51,852 nt of DNA from Umezawaea sp. (GTDB lineage: Bacteria; Actinomycetota; Actinomycetes; Mycobacteriales; Pseudonocardiaceae): NCBI GenBank assembly GCA_039922235.1, contig JBDSAJ010000990.1, forward strand, positions 1 to 51,852, read 5' to 3'. A program made the translations under genes and the position numbers. Under the pieces are notes generated by a model. That model was not told where the DNA came from. It did not search any database and saw nothing but the letters and a program-made list of their open reading frames with translations. Shown one piece after another: positions 12,982-43,321 of this stretch; position 1 is the stretch's first letter, and each line of letters begins with the position of its first letter.

Positions 12982-13567
12982 GTGCACACCACAGCGATCG
13001 CACTGATCCAACTCGGGGCGGTCTTCTTCGGCCTGGGCCTGCTCGGCCGGGTCGCCTGGAAGATCGGCATCTCCCCCATCCCGCTCTACCTGATCGGTGG
13101 GCTGGCCTTCGGGCACGGCGGGCTGATCCCGCTGGACAACATCGACGAGTTCACCCACCTCGCCAGCGAGATCGGCGTGGTGCTGCTGCTGTTGCTGCTG
13201 GGCCTGGAGTACTCGGCGAGCGAACTGGTCACCGGCCTGAAGCGGTCGTGGATGGCGGGCCTGCTCGACATCGTGCTCAACGCGACGCCCGGCGCCGTCG
13301 CCGGCCTGCTGCTGGGCTGGGGGCCGGTCGGCGCGCTCGCGATGGCGGGCGTCACCTACATCTCCTCCTCCGGCATCATCGCGAAGGTGCTCGGCGACCT
13401 CGGGCGGCTCGGCAACCGGGAGACGCCGGTCGTGCTGTCGGTGCTGGTGTTCGAGGACCTGGCGATGGCCGTGTACCTGCCGATCCTGACGGCTGTGCTG
13501 GCGGGCGTGAGCTTCGCGGGCGGGCTGAGCGCGGTGGGCATCTCGCTGGCCGCGATCACCGTGGTCC
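12982..13567 (+). pseudogene. 5' half of a CPA2 cation:proton antiporter (KhtU-like), interrupted by the prophage
   Basis: PIPLYL, SEIGVVLLLLLLGLE, ISSSGII and VFEDL motifs; after AITVV the frame turns non-hydrophobic and stops at 13689, and GC3 bias drops. Confidence 0.85.
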
Positions 13568-13788: not shown

Positions 13789-14973
13789 TCAGACGTTCGG
13801 ACCGAGCCAAGCAACGAAGTTCGCAACGGAGTCAGACTTCCGACGTTCAGCCAGCGCGATACCGCGTGCGGTCTCCCTCACGCTGGGATGCAGCCGGGTC
13901 TGTTGCGGAGCTACCTTCCGGGCCTTGTTGAGCGCGTCAAGTGCTCTTCCTGGCTCGCCCGAGAGCAACCAGGCACGGGCGGTGTCCTGGTAGTGGTGCC
14001 CGGCGCGTGGCGGTGCGATCGATGCCGGTAGACGTAGCGCCGTTCCCTCGCGAGCCGCAATGGCGGGGTCGCCTGCCTCAAGTTCGACCGCGCAGGCGTG
14101 AATGCCTACGTTGGCGCGACCAAAGAGCGTGCCGTATGCGTCTGACTCACCGTTTACGTGCTCGGCGAGCTTGTGCGCTTCAGCGATGTGCTCACGCGCT
14201 AGTACGGGGTTCCTGCCACGTGCCGCCGCGATTGCCCCTGCTAGGTGCGCATATCCGCGTACCGCCAGTGCCGATTCATCGTTCCCCTCGATCGAGTCGA
14301 GCCCACGTTCCACAAGGGAGAGCCCAACGTCGTACGACCCGACGTACATCAGAACACGGCAGCGTTTTACTAGAGCCTGCGCGGAGTAGAGCGGATCATC
14401 GGCGCGCGAGGCTACGTACTCCAGGCGGTCAAGTGTCGGCGTGGTGAGCGTCATATATCCGAATCGCCTGCAAAGTCGCTCGGCGGTGACGTACGCGCTC
14501 GACAACAGCGTGTAGATGGCCGCGCGTTCGCCGTCCGTGTTGGCTGCGTGAACGGCCCCGTGAAGTTGGCGAATGAGGATGGGGAGCCTGACAAGCGATT
14601 GGCGCCCCTTGTCGTTGCGGTACGCCGTGTTGATGAACCCGAGTTCGACCCTCAGATCATCGAGTGGTTCAGGCTCGATGGCCCCTACGTACTGCCCCTC
14701 GGCGAGGATCGCGCGAAGATCGGCGAATCCTTCCAGCCGACCGTCAAGCTCGATGGTGTCGAGGTAGGGCGTATCGACGAGTTCTTCGTACTCCACGTGC
14801 AGGGCGACGCCCACAGCAGCGATGAACGCAGGGCTCGGGGGCTCGACCCCCTGCTCAACCTTGCGCACCAGCGAGAGTGAGTACGCCGTCTTACGGGCCA
14901 GAGCGGCCTGAGTGAGTCCCGCCAGTTTGCGAGATGCGGCGATCCGAGTACCGACGCCGAGTGTGTCAGTCAC
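13789..14973 (-). CDS. XRE-family HTH regulator with a long helical C-terminal domain
   Basis: RIAASRKLAGLTQAALARKTAYSLSLVRKVEQG; C-terminal ARKVAPQQTRLHP. Confidence 0.9.
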   Translation of the reverse strand: MTDTLGVGTRIAASRKLAGLTQAALARKTAYSLSLVRKVEQGVEPPSPAFIAAVGVALHVEYEELVDTPYLDTIELDGRLEGFADLRAILAEGQYVGAIEPEPLDDLRVELGFINTAYRNDKGRQSLVRLPILIRQLHGAVHAANTDGERAAIYTLLSSAYVTAERLCRRFGYMTLTTPTLDRLEYVASRADDPLYSAQALVKRCRVLMYVGSYDVGLSLVERGLDSIEGNDESALAVRGYAHLAGAIAAARGRNPVLAREHIAEAHKLAEHVNGESDAYGTLFGRANVGIHACAVELEAGDPAIAAREGTALRLPASIAPPRAGHHYQDTARAWLLSGEPGRALDALNKARKVAPQQTRLHPSVRETARGIALAERRKSDSVANFVAWLGPNV

Positions 14974-16155: not shown

Positions 16156-16401
16156 TTGACCGGCATCAAGGCACCTTCCATGTCTGCGGTGGGAGTCGCG
16201 CCGAGTGATGCTGACCCGCTCCAAGTCTTGGCGTGGGTCTTCACCTTCTCTGACCGGACAATGGTTCTTGCCGATAACGGGGATTTCTTGGGCCGGTTCG
16301 ACTCGGAGGACAGTGCGGTTCGGTTCATGTCCTTTGGGATCGACTCGGAGAGACTACGTCTCAGCGTCCGCGCACTCGACATCATCGAGGCGCACAAGTA
16401 G
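16156..16401 (+). CDS. Hypothetical protein
   Basis: 81-aa ORF after GGAGA RBS. Confidence 0.55.
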   Translation: MTGIKAPSMSAVGVAPSDADPLQVLAWVFTFSDRTMVLADNGDFLGRFDSEDSAVRFMSFGIDSERLRLSVRALDIIEAHK

Positions 16402-16417: not shown

Positions 16418-16762
16418 GTGCGCGACGAGTTCACTTTAAAAGGATATCGAATTTGGCGCTCAAGCTCAGGTTTCGACGGTGACCGAGACCGTGAATTCAG
16501 AACCTGGAAAAGAGCCTTCGAGTGCCCATATGGTCACACATTCGACCTCACCTTCGACGCTGACGCTGAAATACCAGTCGCATGGGAGTGCCGCACTCAC
16601 AGCATTATGGCCAAGCTGCCGTTCGGCGAGTCCCCACCGCCGCAACCAGTGAGGTATCCGACCAAGTCCCCTCTCGACCACCTGCACGAACGACGCACGG
16701 TCGCCGAGCTGGACACACTCCTAGAAGAACGTCTAGCGGAACTCAGGAATTCGCGAGTCTGA
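16418..16762 (+). CDS. rbpA: RNA polymerase-binding protein RbpA paralogue
   Basis: LKGYRI, CPYGHTFDLTFDADAEIPVAWEC and LHERRTVAELDTLLEERL align with the RbpA N-terminal, core and sigma-interaction segments. Confidence 0.85.
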   Translation: MRDEFTLKGYRIWRSSSGFDGDRDREFRTWKRAFECPYGHTFDLTFDADAEIPVAWECRTHSIMAKLPFGESPPPQPVRYPTKSPLDHLHERRTVAELDTLLEERLAELRNSRV

Positions 16763-16792: not shown

Positions 16793-17152
16793 GTGTCAAC
16801 GAGATCGGAAACCACGTTCAGCCATCCCCTCCCACTACGTCAGCCGGGGACTGACAAGACAACCCCCCGCGAGCGACAGGTTTTGATGTTGGTGGCTCTC
16901 GGGTACATCAACCGCGAGATCGGCAATCAACTGGGTATCACCGAGGACACTGTTAAATCCTACGTCCTTCGCTTGATGAGAAAGTTCTGCGCGCGAAATC
17001 GGGTTCATCTCGTCGTGACCGCCCAGCTCAACGGGATGCTCACGATCAAGCGCAGCGACGGTGTCCGGTGCGATACGGCGGCAGTAGTGATCTCCGTGGA
17101 TGGCGGGTCAGCCGCTTGGGCGGACTCGGGTGGGATCTCAGTGACGCAGTAG
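16793..17152 (+). CDS. Stand-alone LuxR-type HTH protein
   Basis: TPRERQVLMLVALGYINREIGNQLGITEDTVKSYV...NRVHLV; no receiver domain. Confidence 0.85.
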   Translation: MSTRSETTFSHPLPLRQPGTDKTTPRERQVLMLVALGYINREIGNQLGITEDTVKSYVLRLMRKFCARNRVHLVVTAQLNGMLTIKRSDGVRCDTAAVVISVDGGSAAWADSGGISVTQ

Positions 17153-17516: not shown

Positions 17517-17759
17517 ATGGATCTGTATTCGATCGGACTGGACGGGCTTGCCTCGCGGAAGATGTGCGGCGGCAACACTGGCGACAAGTCGGACGAGAAC
17601 TCGGAGTCGTGCGTCATGGTGACCGGAATCCCCGGCTTGCCGGGAGCGGTCGAGTTGACCGACAGCAAGAACCCCGGCGCGGGTGCCCTGCGGTTCGACG
17701 CGGCCGAGATGCGTGAGTTCGTGCTCGGCTACGCGGCCGAGAACGACATCTCGCTGTAG
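17517..17759 (+). CDS. DUF397-like protein
   Basis: CV.V...GAVELTDSKNP...LRFDAAEMREFV signature. Confidence 0.8.
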   Translation: MDLYSIGLDGLASRKMCGGNTGDKSDENSESCVMVTGIPGLPGAVELTDSKNPGAGALRFDAAEMREFVLGYAAENDISL

Positions 17760-21977: not shown

Positions 21978-22886
21978 TCAGTTGTCGGCGATTGCGGCGA
22001 GCTTGCCCAGGGCGACACGCTTGATTCGCCAGATGGCCTGTTGCGAGACGCCGAGGATCTTCCCGGCTTCCCCTTCAGACAGAGCTGGTCCGTCGAACCC
22101 CATCAATACGCCGAGAACTTCGCGTTCCCGTGGTGCGAGGACAGGTGAGGCCATGAGCGCCCGTGCGGTCTCGATGTTCTCGATGCGGTTGAGGGCGTCG
22201 GTCGCGTCGGTGTCGCCGAGGGTTTCCCCGAGGGTGTAGCCCCCGCCGTTGCGCGAGTACAAGTCATCAGCAACCGCGAACATGACGGCGTGCACATCCC
22301 AGAACGTTTCGAGCGTCCATGCGAAGTGCGTGCGCGCATAGGTCGCCGCGCCGATCAGGTCATAGTTGCCGTCCGCGTCCGATGTCGCCCGCAGTGCCTG
22401 CCTGAGTTTCTGCGTGAGCCTGCCCGGATCGTTGGGCTTGCCGGGGCTCTGTGTACTCGCGATGTTGCGCATGTGTCCCAGGACCGCACGCCCGAGGTAC
22501 GGCCCGAGGTTGCCCGCGAAATCGTTGGTGATCTTGCCGGATCGCGCGTCCGTGATCAGCCGTAGAGCGCCCTCCTGATGGAGGTCTTCGCGGTCCAGCG
22601 CCGAGGAGCCAACCGCAGTTGCGGCCATGCGGTCCAACTCTGCCGCACAGCGGACGTACAAGGGAGCCTCGGCGTCCTTGTCCCCGAGGGTCACGGCGTT
22701 GAGCAGGTCCGGGGTCGAGCGCGGATCGGCGAACACGTGAGCGGCAAAGGTGTTGCGGCTCAAGGCTTGCAGCATCTGCGGAAGCGCTGCGCCTCGATAG
22801 GCGTGAGGCGTGCCGTGGTCGAGCCCGTTCCGGATGTCGGTGACGAGTTCGACCCTCGGCTGTTCGAGCGTGCTGATAGTGCTCAC
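21978..22886 (-). CDS. Phage sigma-70-like factor
   Basis: Region 2-like LDREDLHQEG; region 4 LAPREREVL...GFDG...EAGKILGVSQQAIWRIKRVALGKL. Confidence 0.8.
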   Translation of the reverse strand: MSTISTLEQPRVELVTDIRNGLDHGTPHAYRGAALPQMLQALSRNTFAAHVFADPRSTPDLLNAVTLGDKDAEAPLYVRCAAELDRMAATAVGSSALDREDLHQEGALRLITDARSGKITNDFAGNLGPYLGRAVLGHMRNIASTQSPGKPNDPGRLTQKLRQALRATSDADGNYDLIGAATYARTHFAWTLETFWDVHAVMFAVADDLYSRNGGGYTLGETLGDTDATDALNRIENIETARALMASPVLAPREREVLGVLMGFDGPALSEGEAGKILGVSQQAIWRIKRVALGKLAAIADN

Positions 22887-25133: not shown

Positions 25134-27002
25134 CTAGGCGGCAGCTCCGTACAGGGAACCCCATGAGTTACCGCCGATCTCAAGATCGGTCGCGAGCGGG
25201 ACGCCGTAGAAGTCGTCTACTTGCATGGTTTTTGCGATGTGGCGGCCGACTTCCTCGGCGATGTCGCGGGGTGCAGAGAACACCACCTCGTCATGGACCG
25301 GCAACCGCAGGTACTCGGTAAGGCCTTCCTCGTCGAGCCGTAGCAGCGCCTCGGCGAGCACGTCGCGCGCGGTCGACTGGACGACGTAGTTCGTTGCCGC
25401 GTACAGGCGTCGCCGATCGAGCGGGATCACGCGGCCCGAGGGGGTGACGACTTCCTTGCGGCCGTAGAGGGCGCGTTCCTCAAGCCGCCGCGAGTAGCGC
25501 TTGATGCCCCGGTACACGCGGTCGTACTGCCTGATCGCGTGCCGTACCTGTTCCAGCGGTGCCCCGGTCTGCCGAGAGAGCGTGTCCGCACCGCCCCCGA
25601 ACAATTTGCCGAACCCCACCCCCTTCATCAGGTTGCGCTGTTTGACGGTGTAGTTGTCCCCGTAGACCAGGGCGGCCGTGTACCCGTGCAGGTCGCGGCC
25701 CGCGAGGATGGCATCGATCATGGTTCGGTCGCCCGAGAGTGCCGCGATGACGCGCATCTCTACCGCTTGGTAGTCCACGGAACCGATGACGTGACCAGGT
25801 GTGTCCGCGAGCATCGCCCGACGAATGAGCCAGTCTTTCGACGGCAGTTGTTGCAACGGCGGACGGCTGATCGACATGCGCGCGGTACGTGCCTTGAGCG
25901 AGGCGATACTTGGGTGAATGCGGTCCTCGGCATCGCGACCGTTCAGCATCGCGTCTACATAGGACGTTCCCCACTTGCTTGCCCGCTTGGCGCGCAACAC
26001 CGCCTCGGCGAGCGGGTTCGGATCGCGAGTGCCACGCGGCTGCCAGTCACGGTCAAGGTCGGCGAGGTGTAGCAGAACCTCCTTATCGACCTTGAGCGCG
26101 CCAGTCTTGGTGACCTCGGTGAGTTCTTCCCCCATTCCCAGTAGAGCCGACGAGACCTGCGCGGGTGCGTTGACCGAGGTGACGCCGAACATGTGCGCCA
26201 CACTTGACCACTGCTCGGCCTCGGCCCGCAGCGTCGCCCGCAACTCGGTCAGGTAATCGGGGTCGACGCGGAAGCCACGCGCCTCGATCTTGGCGCACAC
26301 CAGCGCAACTGCGTGCTCGAACTCAGCCAGCCTGGCGAATCCTCGCGCCTCGACCTCGGCCGACAGCACCGCGTGCAGCCGTGCGCCGAGGATCACGTCA
26401 AGGCCCGCATACAGCGTGTAGAGCGGGTGATCGAGCGGTATCGCTGCCCAACCGGTCGCCTTGGTGTGGCCGATCTCCCGGAACGCCGAGTACAGCCCGG
26501 TTGCCGTGTCCGGCGCGTCCGGGTCGACGTAGCGCGCCGAGTTGCCCTTGAGCCCGAGTCCGGTCCCGCCGTCCTCGGGGCCGCGCGGGTCGAGTAGGTG
26601 GGTGAGGATCGCGGTATCGGTGGACCGTGACCACAAGTCGTCGAGCACGACATCGAGTTCCTGCGTCGAGACCAGCGCATCGAACGTCAGGTTGTGGACC
26701 GTCAGCCGCGGAAGGTGTCGCAGCGCCGACGACACGACCTCGCGCGCTGCGCCGCATTGATCGGACGGAACGCCGAGCCGATCGACCGGGATAACGAACG
26801 CCTCGGTCTCGTGGCCGAATTGAGCGGTCCTCAACCGGAACGAGGGCGAGAACATGTCGAGACCGGTCGTCTCGGTGTCGAACCCGATCGTGCGTTGTTC
26901 GTTGTGCTGCAACCATAGCGAGAACGTCGAAAGGTCGTCGCGGCTCTCGACGACGTTGACGCGGACCTCGTCGCCCGCCACACGGTGAAGCTGTCTACGC
27001 AA
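25134..27002 (-). CDS. Phage family A DNA polymerase
   Basis: FDTETTG exonuclease motif; DYQAVEMR, KGVGFGKLFG and PVHDE motifs A/B/C. Confidence 0.97.
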   Translation of the reverse strand: MRRQLHRVAGDEVRVNVVESRDDLSTFSLWLQHNEQRTIGFDTETTGLDMFSPSFRLRTAQFGHETEAFVIPVDRLGVPSDQCGAAREVVSSALRHLPRLTVHNLTFDALVSTQELDVVLDDLWSRSTDTAILTHLLDPRGPEDGGTGLGLKGNSARYVDPDAPDTATGLYSAFREIGHTKATGWAAIPLDHPLYTLYAGLDVILGARLHAVLSAEVEARGFARLAEFEHAVALVCAKIEARGFRVDPDYLTELRATLRAEAEQWSSVAHMFGVTSVNAPAQVSSALLGMGEELTEVTKTGALKVDKEVLLHLADLDRDWQPRGTRDPNPLAEAVLRAKRASKWGTSYVDAMLNGRDAEDRIHPSIASLKARTARMSISRPPLQQLPSKDWLIRRAMLADTPGHVIGSVDYQAVEMRVIAALSGDRTMIDAILAGRDLHGYTAALVYGDNYTVKQRNLMKGVGFGKLFGGGADTLSRQTGAPLEQVRHAIRQYDRVYRGIKRYSRRLEERALYGRKEVVTPSGRVIPLDRRRLYAATNYVVQSTARDVLAEALLRLDEEGLTEYLRLPVHDEVVFSAPRDIAEEVGRHIAKTMQVDDFYGVPLATDLEIGGNSWGSLYGAAA

Positions 27003-27079
27003 GGTGCCCCCCTCGGTGTTTCGGGCAGCACGAATGAGCCGGACCGAGGTGGTTCCCGGTCCGGCTGCTGTCGTTGCTG

Positions 27080-29497
27080 TTAAGCCAGTTCCTCCGCGCG
27101 GGCCTTGCGCACTCCGCGTAGCACCATGCCCCGCCGATCACGGATGATGCGGACCTTGCGACCTTCCATGTTCTTCCGGAACGTGATCTTTCCCCACGGG
27201 CGTGACGCCCCGCCCAGCTCGACATCCGCCCAGTCCTGATAGGCGTTGAACGCGTCGTCGAGCGTGATCCGGGCCTCGGGGTCGCGCACGAGCACGCCCG
27301 GTAGGAACCCGTCGAGAATGTCGCTCGACCGCCGGTACTCGCGGACGGCCGACAACACCGACTCGGGTTCGCGCAGCCCCTCGGCGTACCACTGCACCGC
27401 ACCGCGCACGGCCCACGCGGCGATACCGACCGACTCGGCAAGCAGCGTCACGGGGAGTGCTGCGTCCTTGTCGGTACCCGCGAACTCTCGGGCGAACGGG
27501 ATGAGTCTGGTTCGCCTCCAGAAACCGTCATCCTGCCCGCGCACGTCGGGCCGATAGTTCGTCGCCATGAGCATCAGCGCCGTCGGCGTGAACGTGAACT
27601 GTCCTTTGTAGAGTTCACGAGCGACCACAGGGTCACCGGCCGTGATCTGCTTGAGCAACGCCTCGTTGAGGCGCAACCCCTCGGACAGCTCGGAGAGCAC
27701 CGCCAGGCGCACACCACGCAGCGCAGCGAGCGCGGGGTTGGCCGCACTCGGGTCGAATGCCCTGGTCTGGGCAATCGCGGCTTGCGACATGTGTCCAGTG
27801 ATGCCTGCGAACACCGTCGCCAGTGCGTTGACGAACACGCTCTTGCCGTTGGAACCGTGGCCGTAGAGCAGCGCGAACACGTGCTCACGCGTCTCGCCTG
27901 TGATGCCGTAGCCGACGAGCCGTTGCATGAACCCCGGCATCTCGGGGTCCTCGGGGAAGACCTCGCCGAGGAACCGTGTCCACCTCGGGCAGGCTGCCTC
28001 GGGGTCGTAATCGAGATCGACGAACCGGGTCAACCGGTCCTCGCGTCGATGCTCGCGCAGCTCCCCCGTGGTGAGGTCGACGGTTCCGTTGCGGAAGGTC
28101 AGCAGATCGTGCCGCGCGTCGAACTCGGTCACCTCGGCGGCGGTGATCGTTCGGAGGTGTTCGAGTGCGGCCCGGATGCCCGAATCCATGTGCATCCGGC
28201 GCGTGCGCTTGACCGCTTGGACGTACTCCTCATGGTCGCGCTGCTCCGCTCGACTGCCGTCCTTGTCGCCCTTGGGCATCGCGGCCAGCTCACGCGCCAT
28301 TGCGTCGGCGACTCGATGCCCGATCGCCCGCTCACGGGTCGTGCTCATGACCTGCCAGATACGCCCGGACCAGGTGAGGAAACCCACGCCGTCCACGTGC
28401 GCGGTGTCCTCGCCAACGATCGTGAGCGCCAACCGGGCGTTTTCGATATCGGTTCCGAGGGTGGCCTTGAGCTTGTCCCGCTTGGGCGGTGGCGGTGGCG
28501 GATCGCTCGGCGTGGCCTCCTCCCCCTGTGCCCATTCGACCGCCTCGGCAACCGCTCGATGCAGTGCCGCGCTGAACTGATCGGGTGCCGCAGCGCGCCA
28601 GTCCGCAAGGTCGCCGTACTCCTCGGGGATGCGCAGCACACGGGCGTGGATGCCGAGTGCCTTGAGCCCTGCGCCGAGCGCGTCGTTGAACTCACGTCCG
28701 GCCTGGTCGTTGTCCCCGGCAAGAATCACCTCTCCCCCCGCGGCGCCAACGGCGAGTTCCGTGATGGTCCGCTCGGCGCGTGCCACCCCGGCACCACGAA
28801 CGGCCACGGCGGTGTATCCGGCCGCAACTGCGGTGAGGGCATCGCCCGGTCCCTCGGCGACCACAACCGTCGGGAAGCTGTCACCGGTCCGTAGAACGGC
28901 CGTCGCGTCCCATCTCATGCCCTCGGCGGGCGAGGCCAGGTTGAGCCACCTCGCCGGACAACCGTTGCCAACATCGCGACCTTGCAAGCCCCTCGGCATC
29001 CCGGACCAGTCGACGAACGGGACGACCAAGCGCGGATGCGCGAGGTACCCAGACGTCCGGTAGTCCTTGGCGCGGCCGACGCTCACCGTGCCGTCGTCGA
29101 ACCCGAGGCGCAGTTGTCGCCCCATGTCCTCGGTCAACCCGAACCGGTCGCGGGCGTACTCGGCGGCCCGTGAGCCCGCGAATCGTCCGGCCGCCGCGTT
29201 GACGTAGGTGGCCAGCGCGGCGACGACGCCCGGAGCCAGCTCGACCGGCGCGACCGTCGAGAGCGTCGGTTCGCCGGTCACCTCGAACAAGTCCGACTCG
29301 GCGAGATCGGCTGCTTTGAGAACGTCGGCTGTCTTGCAGCCCGCGCGGCAGTAGACCAGTGCCCGCCGTTCGTCGGTGAGCGACACGAACAGACTCGGTC
29401 GTCCGTCGCCGTGCGCGGGACAGGTGACCAGCACGCCGCCGCGTTCGTCGAGCACAAGCCCGTTGCCGAGGCGGTCGAGCAATCGATCAATGTGCAC
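27080..29497 (-). CDS. Primase-helicase (Zn ribbon, TOPRIM, P4/D5-type SF3 helicase)
   Basis: CPAH...YCRAGC; EGPGD, GDND; GHGSNGKS; ITAGD, FWRR. Confidence 0.95.
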   Translation of the reverse strand: MHIDRLLDRLGNGLVLDERGGVLVTCPAHGDGRPSLFVSLTDERRALVYCRAGCKTADVLKAADLAESDLFEVTGEPTLSTVAPVELAPGVVAALATYVNAAAGRFAGSRAAEYARDRFGLTEDMGRQLRLGFDDGTVSVGRAKDYRTSGYLAHPRLVVPFVDWSGMPRGLQGRDVGNGCPARWLNLASPAEGMRWDATAVLRTGDSFPTVVVAEGPGDALTAVAAGYTAVAVRGAGVARAERTITELAVGAAGGEVILAGDNDQAGREFNDALGAGLKALGIHARVLRIPEEYGDLADWRAAAPDQFSAALHRAVAEAVEWAQGEEATPSDPPPPPPKRDKLKATLGTDIENARLALTIVGEDTAHVDGVGFLTWSGRIWQVMSTTRERAIGHRVADAMARELAAMPKGDKDGSRAEQRDHEEYVQAVKRTRRMHMDSGIRAALEHLRTITAAEVTEFDARHDLLTFRNGTVDLTTGELREHRREDRLTRFVDLDYDPEAACPRWTRFLGEVFPEDPEMPGFMQRLVGYGITGETREHVFALLYGHGSNGKSVFVNALATVFAGITGHMSQAAIAQTRAFDPSAANPALAALRGVRLAVLSELSEGLRLNEALLKQITAGDPVVARELYKGQFTFTPTALMLMATNYRPDVRGQDDGFWRRTRLIPFAREFAGTDKDAALPVTLLAESVGIAAWAVRGAVQWYAEGLREPESVLSAVREYRRSSDILDGFLPGVLVRDPEARITLDDAFNAYQDWADVELGGASRPWGKITFRKNMEGRKVRIIRDRRGMVLRGVRKARAEELA

Positions 29498-30506
29498 CGG
29501 TCACCCCCTCCGTTGTGTTGGTGTGCACACCACAAATGGCAGCGCGGGTAAGCACCTCGACCAGCGCGCGGACGGCTGTTTCCCCTTGCAGCGGCACCAC
29601 TCCGTTGCCGCACAGCCCGAGGGCCTGGTTGACCGAGACACCCGGCACTGCGGAGACCCAACCGTCCGGCAACCCCATTGCCCACTCGGTGAACCGTGGC
29701 GACAACTTCGGTCGGCCGTGTGGCCCCTCGATCGCCGGTCGCGGAGCTGGACGCCCTAGGACTCGCTCCCACCGGTCGATAGCGGCGCTGTACTCACCCC
29801 AGTCGAGTCGGTGCCCGTCCTCGGTGCGAGGACGTAGCGAACGATCGCGTCCAAGCTCGCGCCCGACTGACGTCCGTTCCCCGGTCGTCCTCCGCGACGC
29901 CCATGACCGTTCGGCGACAACCCGGTATCCGGGGTCGGCAACAGCCTGTTCACGCTGCCCGTCAACGTGTCCGGACGCTCGGAAGTCGAGCCCAGAACCG
30001 CCCGTCGCGAATCCGACGCGCGTGGGGTCGACAGCAACGACAAAGACCCGGTCTCGTCGATGAGGTGCCCCGACGTCGGAAGCTCGCAGGCTTCCCCATG
30101 CGACGAGATACCCCAGCGTGGCCAGATCCGCGAGAACGTCGCCGAACCCCTTGGATCGGTGGCCGGGGACGTTCTCCAGGACCACGACGCCTGGTCGAAG
30201 TACGCGAATGCCCTCGGCGATGTGCGGCCAGAGGTGACGCGGGTCATCGGCCCCCTTTCGTTGTCCGGCAAGGGAAAACGGCTGGCAGGGATACCCCGCC
30301 GTGAGGACGTCGACCCGAGGGACGCTTGTCCAGTCGACCGCCCGGATGTCGCCGAGGTTGGGCAGGTGCGGCCAGTGGTGCGCGTGCACCTTGATCGCCG
30401 CGTCGTCGATCTCGGAGAACCACACGGTCCGGGTGCCGAACACCGCGTTGGCGGCGATGTCCAAACCCCCGTATCCCGAGCACAGAGAACCGCTCGTGAG
30501 GGTCAT
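29487..30506 (-). CDS. Phage DNA (cytosine-5) methyltransferase
   Basis: LCSGYGG, AGYPCQPFS, ENVPG, PHRRDRVF, LSPRFTEWAMGLPDGW, GNGVVP. Confidence 0.93.
   Translation of the reverse strand: MTLTSGSLCSGYGGLDIAANAVFGTRTVWFSEIDDAAIKVHAHHWPHLPNLGDIRAVDWTSVPRVDVLTAGYPCQPFSLAGQRKGADDPRHLWPHIAEGIRVLRPGVVVLENVPGHRSKGFGDVLADLATLGYLVAWGSLRASDVGAPHRRDRVFVVAVDPTRVGFATGGSGLDFRASGHVDGQREQAVADPGYRVVAERSWASRRTTGERTSVGRELGRDRSLRPRTEDGHRLDWGEYSAAIDRWERVLGRPAPRPAIEGPHGRPKLSPRFTEWAMGLPDGWVSAVPGVSVNQALGLCGNGVVPLQGETAVRALVEVLTRAAICGVHTNTTEGVTGAH
29756..30271 (-). CDS. Overlapping alternative-frame ORF inside the MTase gene (LLPTP-type repeats)
   Basis: 171-aa open frame with LLSTPRASD and LLPTPDTG units. Confidence 0.45.
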   Translation of the reverse strand: MPDNERGPMTRVTSGRTSPRAFAYFDQASWSWRTSPATDPRGSATFSRIWPRWGISSHGEACELPTSGHLIDETGSLSLLSTPRASDSRRAVLGSTSERPDTLTGSVNRLLPTPDTGLSPNGHGRRGGRPGNGRQSGASLDAIVRYVLAPRTGTDSTGVSTAPLSTGGSES

Positions 30507-30649
30507 GGGAGAAACCAGCCGACGACCGTGACCAGACCCGTGACCAGAAGAAACAACGCCGCGAGGTCGACCAGGGCGATGACCAGGAACCCGAACCAGC
30601 GCGGTCGCCCGCCGTTGTCGCCGAGATCGGGGGGTTCGATCGTGTCCAC
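30503..30649 (-). CDS. Small membrane protein (48 aa)
   Basis: Read manually: VDTIEPP...WFGFLVIALVDLAALFLLVTGLVTVVGWFLP; ATGA coupling to the MTase. Confidence 0.6.
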   Translation of the reverse strand: MDTIEPPDLGDNGGRPRWFGFLVIALVDLAALFLLVTGLVTVVGWFLP

Positions 30650-30736
30650 TGTCTGACACCCCTTTCGGTTGTGGGGCAACGCGAAAGCGCCCCCGCGCCA
30701 TCCACTCGGGACAGCGCGGGGGCACCTGGTTCGCGG

Positions 30737-31423
30737 TTAGGCCGCGCCCTTGATCACGATTTCCGGCCGCGTGTACGACACGTCGCGGCCCTTCTTGGTC
30801 GTGTACTCGACGAGGGTGAGGCGCAGTTCGGCGATAACCGGGCCGTCCGCGTCGGCGAGCTGCCGTTCGATCTCCGGGAGGTCGTTGACCAGCGACCAGG
30901 AACCGGACCCGAACACGAAGTAGCCGAGTTCGGGGTCATCCTTGAGACGGAAGCGCAGCGAGATGTCCGGCTTGGGACCGGTGCCGCTCTTGGCCTTGTC
31001 CTTGCGGTCCTGCAAACCGCGGGGGCACTCGCAGGGCTGGCCGATGCGGTCCTCCTCGGGGTGTCCCGCGATGAGGTACGCGCCGTCGCACACGTGCAGC
31101 GGCCCCTGAAGCCCGTACAGCGCCATCCGTGAGCGCAGCGCCTCGGCCGACTCGACGACCACGAGGACCGATTCGGCCTCGCTCATGACCTCGTAGCGGT
31201 CGCGGGCCTCCTCGTCCCCGGAGTCCACGGCCTCACCGCCGAACAACTCGGCGATACGGTCGGCGACGTCCGGGTCATCGGAGATCACGCGCCACTCGGA
31301 CAGCGCCATCGGGCGACGGCCGACCAGTTTGCCGCCCTTGAACTTCCCGACCACGTCGTCCATGAACGGGTTCCGGGCCTTGGGCTTCGCGTCGGGGTCG
31401 GTCTCGAAGATCCTGAGAGCCAC
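30737..31423 (-). CDS. phiC31 gp3-like recombination directionality factor
   Basis: ALSEWRV, LFGG, HVCDG, IGQPCECP, DDPELG.F.F..GSW and LVEYT match the gp3 family. Confidence 0.85.
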   Translation of the reverse strand: MALRIFETDPDAKPKARNPFMDDVVGKFKGGKLVGRRPMALSEWRVISDDPDVADRIAELFGGEAVDSGDEEARDRYEVMSEAESVLVVVESAEALRSRMALYGLQGPLHVCDGAYLIAGHPEEDRIGQPCECPRGLQDRKDKAKSGTGPKPDISLRFRLKDDPELGYFVFGSGSWSLVNDLPEIERQLADADGPVIAELRLTLVEYTTKKGRDVSYTRPEIVIKGAA

Positions 31424-31501
31424 ATGCTCCCCTTTCAGTCGTCGACAGAAGATTCAGTGCGAAAGGTTCCGCCCGTATCTCTGGTATGGGTGAAGGGCTG
31501 G

Positions 31502-31891
31502 TCAGGCACGCCGCCAGGTCGGCCGCGGGTAGGTGGCGGTGAACGCGTTGCGGACGTGCGCGGCGATGCGCTGCGCCTCGGCCTTGAGGGCCGCCTGTTC
31601 GGCCGCCCGCTCGGCGAGGTGGGCCTTGCGGTCGTCGGCGAGCTTGAGCAGCGCCTCGGCGACCTCGCGGGCCTGGTCCTCGTCGAGCGCGATCGGCCGA
31701 CCGTTGACCTTGAGCGAGGCCACGAGGTTGTCCTTGAGCGCGCCGACCGTGGCCGGGATGCGGTGCACGTCCAGGCGGGCCGCGCCGCTCGCGAAGGTGA
31801 CGGGGTACTCGCTGATCCGCGCGACGCTCGCACCGGTCGGCAGGTTCTTTGGTTCGGTCTCGGTGCGGTAGCTGACTTCCCACTTGGGCAT
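31502..31891 (-). CDS. Hypothetical phage protein
   Basis: 129-aa ORF after GAGGGGA RBS. Confidence 0.7.
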   Translation of the reverse strand: MPKWEVSYRTETEPKNLPTGASVARISEYPVTFASGAARLDVHRIPATVGALKDNLVASLKVNGRPIALDEDQAREVAEALLKLADDRKAHLAERAAEQAALKAEAQRIAAHVRNAFTATYPRPTWRRA

Positions 31892-31914
31892 GACTGTCCC
31901 CTCTCGTGAACTGC

Positions 31915-32715
31915 TCAGCGTTTGGCGGCGCGGCGCTCGGACCCGGTCGAGATCGTCGAGTCGTACACCGGGTCGCCGATGACGGTCTTGCTCTCCTCGG
32001 TGACCCAGTCGAAGACATCGCGCATGGTGAGGAAGCGCTCGAACACCGCCGCGTCAGCGCGGACGGGAACCAACTTCCCGCCCTCGGGCCGCACGTGGAA
32101 CACCGCGTGCGCGGCGATGGCGGGAATCTCGACGTCCTCGCCGGTCGCCGTGATGATCTTGTCGGCGTTGCGGTACGCGGAGAGCTGCAAGGCCACCGCG
32201 TCATGCACCCCGGAACGGGTCGTCTTGGTGTCACCGAGGACGATCTCTCCCTCGATCTCGGCAATCCAGTCGAACGAACCGGCGAACCGGTGAGTGTCAG
32301 ACCACACCGTGTCCTCGATGTGGAGGAACCGTGGTTGGTACCGGTCAAGGAACGCGTCGATGTGACGCAGGTAGTCGACCATCTCGGGATGCTGACGACC
32401 GACAGCCTGCCCGCGCGCCCGCTTCTCGAAAAGCGAGTGAACCTCGGTGCCCGTGTCGGCCGCCTCATGGACGAACCGCCGAGAGGCATTCTTGATGACG
32501 TCGATCGCGGCTTGCCGCTGGCCGTTGACAAGCAACTGCACAACCGCGCCGATGTTGTCCGACGCCCATTCTGCCGCGAGCTTGGACGCCCAGAACGTCA
32601 GGAACGGTTTCGGCAACATGTCAATGATGCTGGTGACGCCCGGATACTTGACTCGCGTTTCCGGGTGGACGTAGAAGCGGGAACCGCCGCGCTTGATCGT
32701 CGTAAGTCCGGCCAT
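31915..32715 (-). CDS. PD-(D/E)XK (Cas4/RecE-like) exonuclease
   Basis: PGVTSI, GTEVH, FAGSFD, GDTKT, LQLSAY. Confidence 0.88.
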   Translation of the reverse strand: MAGLTTIKRGGSRFYVHPETRVKYPGVTSIIDMLPKPFLTFWASKLAAEWASDNIGAVVQLLVNGQRQAAIDVIKNASRRFVHEAADTGTEVHSLFEKRARGQAVGRQHPEMVDYLRHIDAFLDRYQPRFLHIEDTVWSDTHRFAGSFDWIAEIEGEIVLGDTKTTRSGVHDAVALQLSAYRNADKIITATGEDVEIPAIAAHAVFHVRPEGGKLVPVRADAAVFERFLTMRDVFDWVTEESKTVIGDPVYDSTISTGSERRAAKR

Positions 32716-32895
32716 GGAACCTCCGGTGCCATTTGCGTTTCGCTTGACACCGAGGACACCCCCCGTAGAGGGGCCGTTAACAACCGGATGAGACCGGAGT
32801 CACAGAAGGAACCTTCTGTATGTATTTTGTGGTGTGCACACCATCCACATGGCGGCGACGTTCACATGAAGGGTCGCGCCTGGACACCTGCGGCT

Positions 32896-33597
32896 CTAGC
32901 CCGCCTGCTTACGCATCTTCTCGCGGGCGATCTCACAGGCCTGTTGCGCCGTCTGGCAGACGCGCCCAAGGTGGCCGATCAGCGCCTCGGTTTGCTCAGC
33001 GGAGAGTCCGGCAAGCTGTTCGACGCCTGCGCCCTCGGGGTCCGCGACCATGACGTCAAGACGATCTCGGACTACCTGCACGAGTTCGACAAGCCGTTCC
33101 GGAGTGACGGATTCGGTAGCCAATACTCGATGTTCGCGGATGTCTCGTGAACGTTTCTCGTTCGGGCCTTCCGGTTTCAATCCGTGCACGCGGCACAATT
33201 CGTGATATTTGGCGAGATCATCGCCCGCAAGTTTCATCAGGCGTTCACGGACGCCGTATTGCATGTGATAGCGAACAGCCTCGACAAGGTGCCGATGAGG
33301 GGAGGTACTACCAAGGCCCGCCTCGTCAAGAAGTCTCGTGAATGCTGTTCGGTAGTCCCAGCTCTTGCCCTTGTAGTCGGTGATTCCCTGCTTGTTCGCG
33401 AAGGTCTCACGCAGGTCGATAGCCGCCTCTGCGAACGCTCTGCGGTTCTCCGTAGTGTCGTGCGCGACGAGTTGGCGACCAGCGTCAACGACTGCTATCT
33501 GACGCTGTTCGCGTTTATTCTGATTTGCGTCTTGCGTTCGCGACACGACGTGCGCCCTTCCCGTAAACCCAGCAAGGCTCCGTGCGGAGACTAACAC
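32896..33597 (-). CDS. Probable immunity repressor
   Basis: DYKGKSWDYR...AVRYH...GL.P..P resembles Streptomyces phage repressors as recalled; lies between late and early genes; start uncertain. Confidence 0.55.
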   Translation of the reverse strand: MLVSARSLAGFTGRAHVVSRTQDANQNKREQRQIAVVDAGRQLVAHDTTENRRAFAEAAIDLRETFANKQGITDYKGKSWDYRTAFTRLLDEAGLGSTSPHRHLVEAVRYHMQYGVRERLMKLAGDDLAKYHELCRVHGLKPEGPNEKRSRDIREHRVLATESVTPERLVELVQVVRDRLDVMVADPEGAGVEQLAGLSAEQTEALIGHLGRVCQTAQQACEIAREKMRKQAG

Positions 33598-33625
33598 ACG
33601 GAGCCTTCTGCATCTCGGGCGGAAA

Positions 33626-34375
33626 TCAGGCGGCTTGGCTGCTCACCTCGGGGTGATAGAACTTCTCGCCGCACTCGCCGCACAGGATCGCGCGCTTGGC
33701 CAATCGACCAGGACTGACGGGGAAGGGCTCGGGTTCTTCGCATCCACACACGGCGTTCGGTCGCTTGTTCACCTTGCGACCGCCCGTACCGGTGCCTGCG
33801 CCGCCTTCGTCGCCTCCCCCGCTGCCGCCCTCGTCACCTCCCCCGGTACCGGTCACCGTGACGACCTCGGACAAGTACGCCTTGACCGCCGACTCAAGCG
33901 CGGTGATCGTGTCGGCGTACTTCTCCGCCGCCGCATCGGTGATGACCACGGCCGAGTATCCGTGCGTCTTGTGCGCCTCACCGCCCTCGGGCCACTCGTC
34001 GCCCAACTCTTTTGCCGCTGCGACGAACCGCAGGTTGTGACGGCCGTTCACGTTGGTGTCCTTGATGCCACGCACGTGACACAGACCGTGCGCCGCTTCG
34101 TGCAACAGGGTCTGCATGATGCGACGCCCGGACAGACCGAGAAGTTGACCGGCAACGAACAGTTCGGGCTTACGCGGAGCGTCGGCCGTGTCTTCCCCCT
34201 CGTCACCGAGGTCTACCCAGCGGTTGGCCCAGAAATGCGCCCAGCGGTCGCCGCCCTTCTGATGCCAGCCCGACCCGGTCACGACCACGACGTCCGGCAC
34301 CTCAGGGTTGACGGTGCGGATGTCGGCCCATGCCGCCTCGATGGCCTTGACGATCCTTGCGCCCGTGCCGGTCAT
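33626..34375 (-). CDS. SprT-like zinc metalloprotease
   Basis: TLLHEAAHG...HNLRF...ELG; C-terminal CGC...CGEC. Confidence 0.7.
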   Translation of the reverse strand: MTGTGARIVKAIEAAWADIRTVNPEVPDVVVVTGSGWHQKGGDRWAHFWANRWVDLGDEGEDTADAPRKPELFVAGQLLGLSGRRIMQTLLHEAAHGLCHVRGIKDTNVNGRHNLRFVAAAKELGDEWPEGGEAHKTHGYSAVVITDAAAEKYADTITALESAVKAYLSEVVTVTGTGGGDEGGSGGGDEGGAGTGTGGRKVNKRPNAVCGCEEPEPFPVSPGRLAKRAILCGECGEKFYHPEVSSQAA

Positions 34376-34387
34376 GTCGATCTCCCT

Positions 34388-34469
34388 TACAGATGGTTCC
34401 GCCTGCACCTCCCAATCTAGGTACAGATGGTTCCGCCTGCAATGGTGGTGCGCTGTGGTGCGCACCACA
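34388..34469. promoter_or_regulatory. Tandem motif-B pair plus a motif-A variant upstream of the protease-repressor genes
   Basis: TACAGATGGTTCCGCCTGCA at 34388-34407 and 34422-34441; TGTGGTGCGCACCACA at 34454-34469. Confidence 0.75.
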
Positions 34470-34522
34470 ACATGGCCGCCCCTTCCAGTCCACATAGGAC
34501 AGGCGAGGGGCGGCCCGTTCGA

Positions 34523-34756
34523 CTACTCGCGGTCGAGCGGTGGGAAACCGCGGTTCTCGCGGGCGACCGGGGTGACGCGCCGCTGAATGGCCGCGCCCGT
34601 CACGATGGCAATTGCCGCCGCGATCCAGTCGGCGATGTCGCCGACGTCGAAACCGGCAAGACCGGGGACGTACTTGACGGCGAGACCCGCGAGTGCACCG
34701 ATGAGAGCGAGCGAGAGAGCCGGATAGCGCTCGATCAGAGACTTGATCTTGTTCAC
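34523..34756 (-). CDS. Putative holin
   Basis: 77 aa, two hydrophobic segments, RRVTPV tail, last gene of the tail operon. Confidence 0.6.
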   Translation of the reverse strand: MNKIKSLIERYPALSLALIGALAGLAVKYVPGLAGFDVGDIADWIAAAIAIVTGAAIQRRVTPVARENRGFPPLDRE

Positions 34757-34822
34757 TATGTTGTCCTTTCCATGCCGCCGATGACGTTGCGACTCGGCGC
34801 ACAGGTTGCGGAAGTTCGTGTG

Positions 34823-35647
34823 TCAGTAGCCGAAATCGCGTGGGGGCATCGGCCAGATTCCGTCTTCGTCCGGCCACAGGGCCGCAGGTCCCTCGGCGGA
34901 AGATCGCGCGGTCGACGCCAGAGCCTCGGTTCTGATCGGGTATCCGGGGACGTCCGAACCGGTGATCAACGACCCCTCGATACTCGCCATCGGGAACGCT
35001 GCCAGGGGCGCGAGGAAGACGTATTCGGGCTCCCTGAACAGGACCGGATAACGCACCTCCGACTGTGTGACCCACGCCGCCAAGAACTCGGTCTGTGACG
35101 CGGTGAAGCCCTTGCCCAATGCGTCGGCCGAGAAGTCGGCGTTACGGGGGCGCGTGAAGCGGTTGCCGGTCACGTTGGCGTGGATCTCCACGTTTCCGCG
35201 TCGGAGGAGGGTTTGAGCCTCGATCTCGTCCCACTGGTCTACCGGCATCCCGTGCAGCCAAGCGATTTCGAACGTGTTGCTCCGATAGTTGCCGTCGGCG
35301 CTTCCGGTGATCGACCAACGGCGCGTCGAGCGGCTGGAAGTGCCCATGTTCGCGCGTAGGTAGACCTCGCAGGCTCCGCCGTTCCCGATGACGAACACGT
35401 GGAAGCGTGCGACCAGGACCGGGTATCTCGGGTTGACCAGGGCCGCCGAGTACGCCTCGGAGTCCTTCGCCGCGTACTGGCCGTTGCCGAGTGGCGTGGT
35501 GTACATCTCGCGGGCGTTTGACGCGTCGTTGGTGGACAGCGGTTGCCGGTAGGCAAGGCTCCTGTCGCCGCGTTCGAGCGCGTCGAGTCGCTCTCTGTCC
35601 TCGCGGAACTCGGCTGCGAGGGACGGCGGTAGGGACGGGTTAGGCAT
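34823..35647 (-). CDS. Minor tail protein
   Basis: Position; N-terminal ERLDALER coiled segment. Confidence 0.65.
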   Translation of the reverse strand: MPNPSLPPSLAAEFREDRERLDALERGDRSLAYRQPLSTNDASNAREMYTTPLGNGQYAAKDSEAYSAALVNPRYPVLVARFHVFVIGNGGACEVYLRANMGTSSRSTRRWSITGSADGNYRSNTFEIAWLHGMPVDQWDEIEAQTLLRRGNVEIHANVTGNRFTRPRNADFSADALGKGFTASQTEFLAAWVTQSEVRYPVLFREPEYVFLAPLAAFPMASIEGSLITGSDVPGYPIRTEALASTARSSAEGPAALWPDEDGIWPMPPRDFGY

Positions 35648-36719
35648 CCTCGAACACCTCCAAAGGGGCGACGGTTGCAGTGATGTTCTCCGCGCCGTTG
35701 GCGTCCACGGCCACGGCGAGATCGGTCACCATCCACTCGCCCGAGATCGGCATCAGCCCGTAGCCACCCGCCACGGCCACGATGTCGCCGACGCCCAGCG
35801 CAGAAACTCCGAGTGCGATGTCGGGGTAGATGTCGATGGTGGGGAGGAGAATCGGTGTGGCGCGAACGCGCGTGAGGAAGTCGGCTTTTGCTTGAAGCGT
35901 CGCGACTTCCTTGACATCCGGTGTGGACACCACGGATTCGAGTCGCGGGTACACGGTGGACGGGCGTGACGAGGTGGCCCACACCTGTTCGGGTCCGTCG
36001 CCTGCGCCGGTCGCGATGGCCCACGTGCGAACGCTGGTACCGCTGAGTCGTGCTCCGAGGATGGCGCAGTTCACCCCGTCTTCAAGAACGAGGTCACGCT
36101 TGCGGCCGGTCACCGGGTAGCGGATGCGGAACCACACGGCAAGTTCGTCCTCAAAGGACCCGGACCAGTCCGCCTCAAACGCGAAATCGAATCCGTTCGT
36201 CACGGCCGCAAGTTGCTCGACGGCCTCGCCGATGCTCTTGCGGTCGGTCTCTTTGTACATGCGGTCCCGGATGACTCCGGTCTTCTCGTTCCCATACTTG
36301 ACCATGCCGAGCCGAGAGCCTGGCCCGTAGGTTCCCGCGTGCCGTACGAGGTCGCGCGCGATGTCTGCTTGATCCCAACGGGTGTACTGCTTTGTGGTGT
36401 GCACACCACGCAACCGGAAGTAGGACAACCAACCTTCGCAGCGGAGTTTCATCGTGCCCGCTGCGTAGTCGGCCTCGGCGTCCCAGTACAGGCCCGACCA
36501 CACGAACTGTCCATTGCGTTCGATGTGTATTGCCGTTGCCGCTCCTGCGACGAGGCTTGTCCGAGTAACGCGGGACACCCCCGGCACGAGGTCGAGCGTG
36601 ATCGTGGCCGAGCCGGGGGTGTTGCGGGTGGTGGTGTAGTCGATTGACTCGGCGGGAAGCTCACCGTGGATGTAGCCGGTCAGCACGTCTTGAAACAACA
36701 CGCGGTAGGTGGTGGTCAA
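35640..36719 (-). CDS. Minor tail (hub) protein
   Basis: DVLTG...ELP...RNGQFVWSG...NGFDF...GDIV pattern. Confidence 0.8.
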   Translation of the reverse strand: MTTTYRVLFQDVLTGYIHGELPAESIDYTTTRNTPGSATITLDLVPGVSRVTRTSLVAGAATAIHIERNGQFVWSGLYWDAEADYAAGTMKLRCEGWLSYFRLRGVHTTKQYTRWDQADIARDLVRHAGTYGPGSRLGMVKYGNEKTGVIRDRMYKETDRKSIGEAVEQLAAVTNGFDFAFEADWSGSFEDELAVWFRIRYPVTGRKRDLVLEDGVNCAILGARLSGTSVRTWAIATGAGDGPEQVWATSSRPSTVYPRLESVVSTPDVKEVATLQAKADFLTRVRATPILLPTIDIYPDIALGVSALGVGDIVAVAGGYGLMPISGEWMVTDLAVAVDANGAENITATVAPLEVFEDA

Positions 36720-36728
36720 CGCACCTCC

Positions 36729-37937: not shown

Positions 37938-37956
37938 GTTGGCACCTCCAGGAAGA

Positions 37957-38856: not shown

Positions 38857-38860
38857 TCGG

Positions 38861-41362: not shown

Positions 41363-41373
41363 TCACGTCCCCC

Positions 41374-41858: not shown

Positions 41859-41868
41859 GGGCTCTCTC

Positions 41869-42258: not shown

Positions 42259-42329
42259 CGCCGAGCACCCCCCGAGGACGAGGGCTCTCCTGGTTGTGGT
42301 GTGCACACCAAGAGAGCCCTCGACTGGCC

Positions 42330-43310: not shown

Positions 43311-43321
43311 TCGCGTACCTC

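What the first reader, a model, noticed from the sequence alone, without database searches (positions are those of the whole stretch)
16418..16762. Prophage-encoded divergent RbpA, in a phage that also has its own sigma factor
Seen: full RbpA architecture with likely zinc ligands (CPYGH, CRTH) and an intact ERR sigma-binding helix, but an altered basic linker (PQPVRYPTKSPLDHL where host RbpA has a K/R-rich ...PPRTHWDML). A sigma-like gene lies at 21978-22886. Known: RbpA binds actinobacterial group 1 and some group 2 sigma factors, stabilises open complexes and affects rifampicin tolerance. Inference: it is either a dedicated co-activator for the phage sigma or a competitor that retunes host holoenzyme. 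I know of no characterised phage RbpA-sigma pair.
Basis: partly seen in the sequence, partly recalled or inferred. Interest (0 to 1): 0.8.

Follow-up and report, generated by a model that had tools for sequence, protein, structure and literature searches.

The report
Mobile spare RbpA on a prophage
A prophage in a soil actinomycete carries a diverged extra copy of the RNA-polymerase helper RbpA, of a kind that recurs on islands and prophage ends in related bacteria, and it likely retunes the host's own housekeeping polymerase rather than serving the phage's sigma factor.

Summary
16418-16762 encodes a 114-aa RbpA (Pfam PF13397, 77 bits against a cut-off of 25) with intact zinc ligands and ERR helix. 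It is 37% identical to the host's core RbpA and lies 2.9 kb inside attL of a serine-integrase prophage. The gene at 21978-22886 is a full-length sigma70-fold protein.

The 'phage RbpA-sigma pair' reading is not supported. 0 of 13 other prophages with a close homolog of this sigma carry RbpA, and 6 of 9 RbpA-carrying prophages show no sigma.

The gene instead belongs to a broad class of accessory RbpA paralogs: 36 of 246 published family genomes, 58 loci, mostly islands and prophage ends beside XRE regulators. A second one lies in another prophage of the same genome. All 52 aligned copies keep the sigma-binding arginine pair, while tail and linker vary.

Most likely it docks on host sigmaA/sigmaB holoenzyme, competes with core RbpA and shifts promoter output. 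Binding, expression and effect are untested. Verdict: new variant of a known factor.

The parts
12982..13565 (+). 5' half of host cation/H+ antiporter gene, interrupted by the prophage
   Evidence: PF00999; homology with congeners stops at 13565-13575; 3' half on contig C331 from about 3140
13559..13565 (.). attL core (7 bp), repeated at C331:3140-3146 next to a serine integrase (C331:1279-3066, minus)
   Evidence: integrase PF00239 E 3.3e-19. The link between the window's right end and C331 is not assembled, so the pairing is inferred from the two gene halves
13789..14973 (-). XRE-type HTH regulator with long helical C-terminus, divergent from the cassette
   Evidence: PF13560, phrog_5823; 92% aa and 85.5% nt identical to a copy in the C311 prophage of the same genome
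15499..15969 (+). 156-aa cassette protein of no known family, recurring beside XRE genes
   Evidence: no Pfam or PHROG hit; homologs on 4 other contigs and at the same end of related prophages
16156..16401 (+). 81-aa ORF directly upstream of rbpA, probably co-transcribed (16-bp gap)
   Evidence: no family hit
16418..16762 (+). accessory RbpA paralog (the finding): zinc ligands C36, H40, C58, H61; E91-R92-R93; GC 0.57, GC3 0.61; TTA at codon 7
16793..17152 (+). stand-alone LuxR/GerE-type HTH protein, 30 bp downstream of rbpA
   Evidence: PF00196 E 8.7e-16
17517..17759 (+). DUF397 protein
   Evidence: PF04149 E 2.4e-8; homologs at prophage ends in L065 and L096
17849..18280 (+). 143-aa protein paired with DUF397, last gene of the plus-strand cassette
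   Evidence: no family hit; homologs in L065 and L096
18294..18326 (.). 13-pair hairpin between the converging cassette and phage early genes, likely terminator
21978..22886 (-). phage sigma70-family protein (302 aa), a conserved gene of this phage group; neighbour, probably not partner
25134..51346 (-). rest of the prophage: DNA polymerase, primase, Gp3-like recombination directionality factor, tail, capsid, portal, terminase, endolysin

Best explanation
It is a horizontally carried extra RbpA in the regulatory cargo cassette at the attL end of a prophage, which likely binds the host's housekeeping sigmaA/sigmaB holoenzyme through its intact arginine helix and zinc core, would compete there with the host's core RbpA, and would shift promoter output because its tail and DNA-contacting linker are rewritten. 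Shown: family membership, position inside the prophage, an intact frame, retained zinc and sigma-binding residues, a rewritten tail and linker, and recurrence of such paralogs on unrelated mobile elements. Inferred: expression (probably in the lysogen, under the neighbouring XRE and LuxR-type regulators), binding to host sigma, competition for the single RbpA site, and a weaker or promoter-selective effect on open-complex formation.
For: Sequence and literature. R88/R89 equivalents are kept. [quoted passage not shown] The core domain, which contacts beta-prime, keeps 17 of 41 residues and all zinc ligands (PMC5302886 passages). R79 and K76 are described as absolutely conserved in orthologs, and R79A loses activation and counteracts CarD in vitro; here R79 is K and K73/K74 are lost. 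Tail deletion changes a distinct gene set in vivo; here the tail keeps 5 of 28 residues.

Selection. In 0 of 20,000 neutral-decay simulations of the host gene did 37% identity come with no stop and all 8 key residues; 1,102 had no stop and 2 kept the residues. All 12 accessory pairs tested have dN below dS (dN/dS 0.04-0.53 for 11, dS saturated in 1).

Class. 36 of 246 published family genomes carry divergent extras. Among 52 aligned copies R88, R89, C57 and H60 are each 52 of 52, while R79 is 39 of 52 and W82 32 of 52. 34 of 59 fetched loci have an XRE regulator within 5 kb, against 365 of 5,000 random points in the host genome. Only 9 of 58 accessory loci are at prophages, so the one partner common to all is the host enzyme. 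The host encodes sigmaB and at least the C-terminal part of sigmaA.
Against: No binding, expression or transcription data exist. This copy is among the most diverged (end branch 1.17, no supported clade). Its first sigma-domain turn is changed at H81, W82, M84 and L86, so binding to host sigma may be weak or lost. 8 of 58 accessory loci hold a broken copy, so this class does decay. ERR conservation is partly an artefact of finding copies with the RbpA profile, and the 8 simulated residues were chosen after seeing the sequence. The simulation shows past selection, not present function. Many loci are copies of the same islands, so the counts overstate independence. R79K is conservative, so a weakened effect is a guess. 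Whether it activates or antagonises cannot be told from sequence.
Confidence: 0.52

Rival explanations
1. It is a plain supplementary activator: it binds host sigmaA/sigmaB and does what core RbpA does, adding dosage under a different promoter (stress, or expression of cargo genes), and its divergence is largely neutral.
For: Linker plus sigma domain suffice for activation in vitro and the tail is dispensable on some promoters (PMC5302886 passages). R79K and the R near position 76 keep positive charge. The second core paralog beside secG-tpi also has K79 and L82. Several prophage copies (C311, L012, L015, L041) keep a host-like linker and sigma domain.
Against: The host already has two core RbpA-family genes. 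Tail and linker are the least conserved segments across the class while the docking residues are fixed, which fits altered output better than redundancy.
Confidence: 0.22
2. It is a relic: once selected, now relaxed or silent cargo that no longer binds RNA polymerase usefully.
For: It is a singleton with no relative above 49% identity on a long branch. It has low GC3 (0.61 against 0.84 in the host copy) and a TTA codon. 8 of 58 accessory loci are broken. The closest related provirus (L100) ends in a zinc-ribbon ORF with only a weak RbpA-core match and no ERR helix at the same position (E 0.0065).
Against: The frame is intact, an RBS-like run is present, and all 8 key residues are kept (0 of 20,000 neutral runs). 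Its K-x-x-L-x-H-L-x-ERR variant recurs in unrelated copies (L055, L069, P0044).
Confidence: 0.15
3. It is a dedicated co-activator of the prophage's own sigma factor.
For: The genes are 5.2 kb apart in one prophage. The phage sigma is full length, and its N-terminal helices align loosely with region 1.2 and the short non-conserved region of host sigmaB, so an RbpA-type surface is not excluded. 3 of 9 RbpA-carrying prophages have a sigma or a gp53-type sigma mimic (window, G078, C311). The sigma-domain changes could reflect a new partner.
Against: 0 of 13 genome-resident prophages with a close sigma homolog (34-61% identical) carry RbpA. 6 of 9 RbpA-carrying prophages show no sigma, and 49 of 58 accessory loci show no phage hallmark in the DNA examined. 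The RbpA copies in G078 and C311 have host-like sigma domains and do not group with the window copy. The gene lies on the opposite strand, in a cassette that differs among relatives. Characterised RbpA binds only group 1 and some group 2 sigmas.
Confidence: 0.08

Closest known systems
RbpA of Actinobacteria (PF13397; S. coelicolor and mycobacterial RbpA; PDB 8hvr_G, 5tw1_J, 4x8k_B)
   Same: Four-part architecture, zinc-ribbon core, ERR helix, length; full-length profile match.
   Different: Accessory rather than core; inside a prophage; 37% identical to the host copy; tail and linker rewritten; R79 is K; W82, H81 and M84 changed. Function untested.
Second core RbpA-family gene beside secG-tpi (the name RbpB is recalled and comes from no call; searches found no paper on it)
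   Same: Same Pfam family; K at position 79 and L at position 82.
   Different: It is conserved, syntenic and forms its own supported clade; the window copy is 28% identical to it and falls outside that clade.
Mycobacteriophage D29 gp53 (preprint 10.64898/2026.10.05.756390; abstract and passages seen)
   Same: An actinobacterial phage protein that remodels the SigA/RbpA holoenzyme. The host's second RbpA-carrying prophage (C311) encodes a PF25684 gp53 homolog.
   Different: gp53 mimics sigma and displaces SigA/RbpA from core. The window protein is a true RbpA homolog predicted to bind sigma.
Phage sigma-appropriation factors T4 AsiA, P23-45 gp39, Xp10 P7 (review PMC7403470, passages)
   Same: Small phage proteins that bind holoenzyme before promoter binding and change promoter choice.
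   Different: They target sigma region 4 and the beta flap, and are unrelated in sequence. The review lists the region-2 activators (RbpA, Crl, GcrA, GrgA) under bacterial hosts only.
whiJ-like clusters of mycelial actinomycetes (PMC4255298, passages)
   Same: Strain-variable clusters of an XRE-type regulator with small partner genes, proposed as developmental brakes; the cassette here has an XRE gene and a DUF397 gene. That DUF397 is the small whiJ partner family is recalled, not from a call.
   Different: The window's regulator has no DUF5753 hit, and the passages seen mention no RbpA in such clusters.

Membership tests
RbpA (PF13397) | Profile match over the full domain above the curated cut-off | tested here: met
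   77.2 bits against 25, positions 3-105 of 105
RbpA (PF13397) | Core-domain zinc ligands and core tryptophan | tested here: met
   C36, H40, W56, C58, H61 align with the host copy; zinc binding itself not measured
RbpA (PF13397) | ERR motif of the sigma-interacting domain | tested here: met
   E91-R92-R93; importance from PMC3675491
RbpA ortholog (core activator) | Absolutely conserved linker R79 and K76 | tested here: not met
   R79 is K; K76 is R or Y by alignment; K73/K74 lost; conservation statement from PMC5302886
RbpA ortholog (core activator) | Core chromosomal locus and vertical descent | tested here: not met
   The core copy is on C975; the window copy is inside att sites and its region is not found in 5 of 5 congeners searched
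RbpA ortholog (core activator) | Binds domain 2 of group 1/2 sigma and stabilises open complex | not testable with these tools
   needs two-hybrid, pull-down or in vitro transcription
Dedicated phage sigma plus co-activator pair | Co-occurrence of the two genes across related phages | tested here: not met
   0 of 13 prophages with the sigma homolog carry RbpA; 6 of 9 RbpA prophages show no sigma
Dedicated phage sigma plus co-activator pair | Physical binding of the two proteins | not testable with these tools
   needs a binding assay
sigma70 family (phage gene 21978-22886) | Domains 2, 3 and 4 fold | tested here: met
   Foldseek E about 1e-4, probability 1.0, about 310 columns, low TM-scores of 0.2-0.33; hhalign to sigmaA E 7e-5 over regions 2.2-4
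sigma70 group 1/2 (RbpA-binding type) | Region 1.2, non-conserved region and the aromatic region 2.3 motif | tested here: inconclusive
   N-terminal helices align loosely with sigmaB but have pLDDT 36-59; the region 2.3 tryptophan pair is absent; PF00140 finds only sigmaB in this genome

The most novel reading that the evidence does not exclude
Mobile elements of Pseudonocardiaceae carry a family of 'alternative RbpAs' that keep the docking surface but swap the tail and DNA-contacting linker. They reprogram the housekeeping holoenzyme by exchanging its cofactor rather than its sigma: a sigma-domain-2 route of takeover or lysogenic conversion not described for phages. In sigma-encoding prophages such as this one it would also weaken sigmaA holoenzyme and so favour the phage sigma.
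Probability: 0.3. Interest if true: 0.78.

Novelty: new variant of a known kind. Interest (0 to 1): 0.55.

Why it matters
RbpA is studied as a basal transcription factor of actinobacteria. In about one in seven published Pseudonocardiaceae genomes examined here there are extra, diverged copies under purifying selection on islands and prophage ends. If they bind, they are natural variants that test what the poorly understood tail and linker do to promoter choice. They could also be a way for mobile DNA to retune growth, development or secondary metabolism in an antibiotic-producing family. The narrower claim of a phage RbpA-sigma machine should be dropped unless binding data appear.

Tried and rejected
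Complex prediction of the linker plus sigma domain (residues 70-114) with phage sigma residues 9-150 gave no answer (score 0.00, controls not folded). It is not used for or against binding.

Single-sequence fold of the sigma was useless (pLDDT 41.9). The careful tree did not finish; only the quick tree is reported, and it does not place the window copy.

PHROGs and NCBIfam have no hit for the RbpA. Cultured phages: 1 of 50,697 records matched (MT835496.1). By my reading of its ORFs it is a bacterial core rbpA locus mislabelled as phage. IMG/VR scans with the window protein, a core RbpA and a closer alignment found no full RbpA (one 30-residue fragment). These records are trimmed before the cassette, so the blank is weak. 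Plasmids: 5 of 72,556 records matched, not followed up.

Of 7 IMG/VR records with the sigma, 5 duplicate genome loci and were not counted. A 9.5-bit hit in L170 was rejected as noise. G172, G198 and G230 were removed from the extra-copy count (duplicated or frameshifted core genes). 15 split or truncated rows were dropped before the residue counts.

No RNA holder listed. Contigs of run X1 cover the locus and one spans the attL junction, but it may be the source data and is not independent. The promoter scan gave 1 site against 0.8 expected, which is uninformative. An order-wide search found the sigma family in 0 of 354 genomes outside this family. Earlier findings of the scan: nothing relevant.

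Full report
1. The observation. Window 16418-16762 (+) is a 114-aa ORF with GTG start that matches Pfam RbpA over model positions 3-105 at 77.2 bits, cut-off 25. Its best solved relatives are RbpA chains. It has no NCBIfam or PHROG hit. The host genome holds 4 PF13397 matches: core rbpA (C975), a second core paralog beside secG-tpi (C349), the window copy, and a copy on C311. Named homologs of the neighbouring sigma (Actinokineospora, Actinosynnema, Allokutzneria, Amycolatopsis, Crossiella) place the family as Pseudonocardiaceae.

2. Anatomy against the host core copy (M. tuberculosis numbering). Overall identity is 37% over 110 columns: tail 5 of 28, core 17 of 41, linker 2 of 11, sigma-interacting domain 17 of 30. 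Kept: the four zinc-ligand positions, the core Trp, D83, L85, E87, R88, R89. Changed: K73/K74 lost, K76 R or Y depending on gap placement (against 49), R79K, H81P, W82L, M84H, L86H. From papers, passages only: the arginine pair is needed for sigma binding, and RbpA binds group 1 and some group 2 sigmas (PMC3675491). R79 and K76 are absolutely conserved in orthologs, R79 is needed for activation, and tail loss alters a distinct gene set (PMC5302886). Tail and core antagonise open-complex stabilisation (PMC8956947). So the docking parts are kept and the output-setting parts are rewritten. No relative above 49% identity exists among 1.84 billion representatives (best 150 of 343 hits listed).

3. 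Location. Congener homology ends at 13565-13575 inside an antiporter gene. The other half is on C331 beside a serine integrase, and both junctions share a 7-bp core. The join of the two contigs is inferred. The RbpA gene is 2.9 kb inside attL, in a lower-GC cassette (0.622 against 0.658 for the phage and 0.712 for the host flank). The cassette holds a divergent XRE regulator, two unknown genes, rbpA, a LuxR-type HTH, DUF397 and a partner gene, on the strand opposite to the phage genes and ending at a hairpin. The XRE gene is 92% identical to one in the C311 element. That element is an unrelated prophage with DNA polymerase and a gp53-type sigma mimic, absent beyond about position 11,300 from 5 of 5 congeners, and it carries its own RbpA paralog.

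4. The class. In 251 family genomes, 40 had more than 2 matches by my hand count. Leaving out the 5 unpublished genomes and 3 genomes whose extras are duplicated or frameshifted core genes gives 36 of 246. I fetched 55 loci plus 2 from G002, the window and C311: 59 loci, of which L057 is a core gene, leaving 58. Eight hold a broken copy. After dropping 15 split rows, 52 rows (49 distinct) were aligned: R88, R89, C57 and H60 each 52 of 52; R79 39 (K 9); W82 32 (L 12, Y 8); K76 34 (R 9). All 12 accessory pairs tested have dN below dS. 34 of 59 loci have an XRE regulator within 5 kb, against 365 of 5,000 random host positions; many loci are copies of the same island, so this overstates independence. 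Common neighbours are NB-ARC/TPR proteins, QueD/QueE-like genes, PCMT methyltransferases, lanthipeptide genes, DddA-like/Imm1 pairs and transposases (99 of 156 cluster representatives were scanned, plus a hand-picked subset of the 334 listed singleton ORFs). Nine of 58 loci adjoin prophage genes, 8 with a terminase within 50 kb plus C311. Flanks were extended for 15 loci only, and att sites were mapped only for the window. The quick tree does not resolve the window copy and does not group the prophage copies.

5. The sigma test. The gene at 21978-22886 has 14 close homologs and a full-length sigma70 fold. Its group is unresolved: the N-terminus may be a degenerate region 1.2. Thirteen other genome-resident prophages carry it. 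None has RbpA in the 7-17 kb downstream; 8 of the first 9 were seen to reach host genes, and the last 4 were not mapped. Whole-genome PF13397 scans show only core copies or extras elsewhere. The att-end cassette differs in each. From the other side, 3 of 9 RbpA prophages have a sigma or mimic (window; G078, weak, E 3.5e-9, about the level host sigmas score; C311 gp53) and 6 show none. The base rate of sigma genes in such prophages was not measured. The sigma is a stable gene of this phage group and the RbpA is transient cargo, which argues against a dedicated pair.

6. Function or relic. Neutral decay of the host gene to 37% identity kept an open frame and all 8 key residues in 0 of 20,000 runs (point changes only, residues chosen after the fact). 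The variant motif around ERR recurs in unrelated copies. Against: long branch, low GC3, a TTA codon, broken copies in the class, and a core-like zinc ribbon without ERR at the same position in the closest provirus.

7. Mechanism. Best (0.52): a cofactor variant that docks on host sigmaA/sigmaB holoenzyme, competes with core RbpA and shifts promoter output. Rivals: plain supplement 0.22, relic 0.15, phage-sigma co-activator 0.08. All binding and functional steps are inferred.

8. Novelty. Nine full-text searches (listings and abstract starts seen) returned no paper on phage- or island-borne RbpA paralogs. The library lacks most subscription papers and theses. I read no supplements; the 890-genome RbpA alignment in a figure supplement of PMC5302886 was not seen and could bear on this. 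The nearest print is the D29 gp53 preprint (abstract and passages) and the review PMC7403470 (passages). PMC5121209, PMC4255298, PMC6344877 and PMC5742136 (passages) say nothing on RbpA paralogs beyond a speculation on an RbpA-like partner for HrdD. Verdict: new variant of a known factor, interest 0.55.

Noticed in passing
G000:C311:17796-18125 (L111) and C311:22988-23569 (L133:2988-3569): A second prophage in the same genome carries its own RbpA paralog (host-like sigma domain, new tail), a near-identical XRE regulator, a JmjC gene, a DddA-like/Imm1 pair, and a PF25684 gp53 homolog, the family reported to displace SigA/RbpA in phage D29. A sigma mimic and an RbpA in one prophage is the best case for a linked takeover.
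   Followed up: partly
window 21978-22886: A phage sigma70-fold family found in searched genomes only in Pseudonocardiaceae prophages (no match in 50,697 cultured phage records), full length but lacking the region 2.3 tryptophan pair; group and promoter target unknown.
   Followed up: partly
L100 (IMGVR_UViG_3300049169_000066), last 330 bases, minus strand: The closest related provirus ends in a zinc-ribbon ORF weakly like the RbpA core (E 0.0065) without the ERR helix, at the same position and orientation as the window's cassette.
   Followed up: partly
L009, L021-L026, L028-L030, L032, L034, L036, L040, L042, L056, L110: A recurring island across genera: RbpA paralog with a C-terminal extension beside HTH_58, NB-ARC/TPR, XRE, HAD, QueD/QueE-like, NUDIX, inositol monophosphatase and often PCMT and lanthipeptide genes.
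   Followed up: partly
L017-L020, L027 and L045, L048-L050, L052 (genus g47): One genus has fixed two extra RbpA lineages at conserved loci, one beside a YcaO/nitroreductase cluster and one beside XRE-DUF5753/DUF397; up to 6-7 matches per genome in g47 and g29.
   Followed up: no
L031 (G078:C24:53839): A prophage with DNA polymerase, Gp3-like factor and a distant sigma-like gene carries RbpA followed by a lanthipeptide cluster at its end.
   Followed up: partly
window 13559-13565 and G000:C331:3082-3750: The prophage integrates inside a cation/H+ antiporter gene; the attR side supplies an in-frame start for the 3' half, so a split product may persist.
   Followed up: no
window 16436-16438: TTA leucine codon at position 7 of rbpA, the only one in 8 genes checked; may reflect low GC or rare-tRNA control.
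   Followed up: no
window 1-5982: A separate integrative element ends at tRNA-Pro (5908-5982): tyrosine integrase 4534-5769 with primase-like and GGDEF-like genes by my reading.
   Followed up: no
window 50439-50512 and 49810-50418: The prophage carries a tRNA-Asn and a stand-alone SLT transglycosylase between endolysin and terminase.
   Followed up: no
MT835496.1 (L135): A record filed as phage looks like a bacterial chromosomal stretch with a core rbpA locus.
   Followed up: partly
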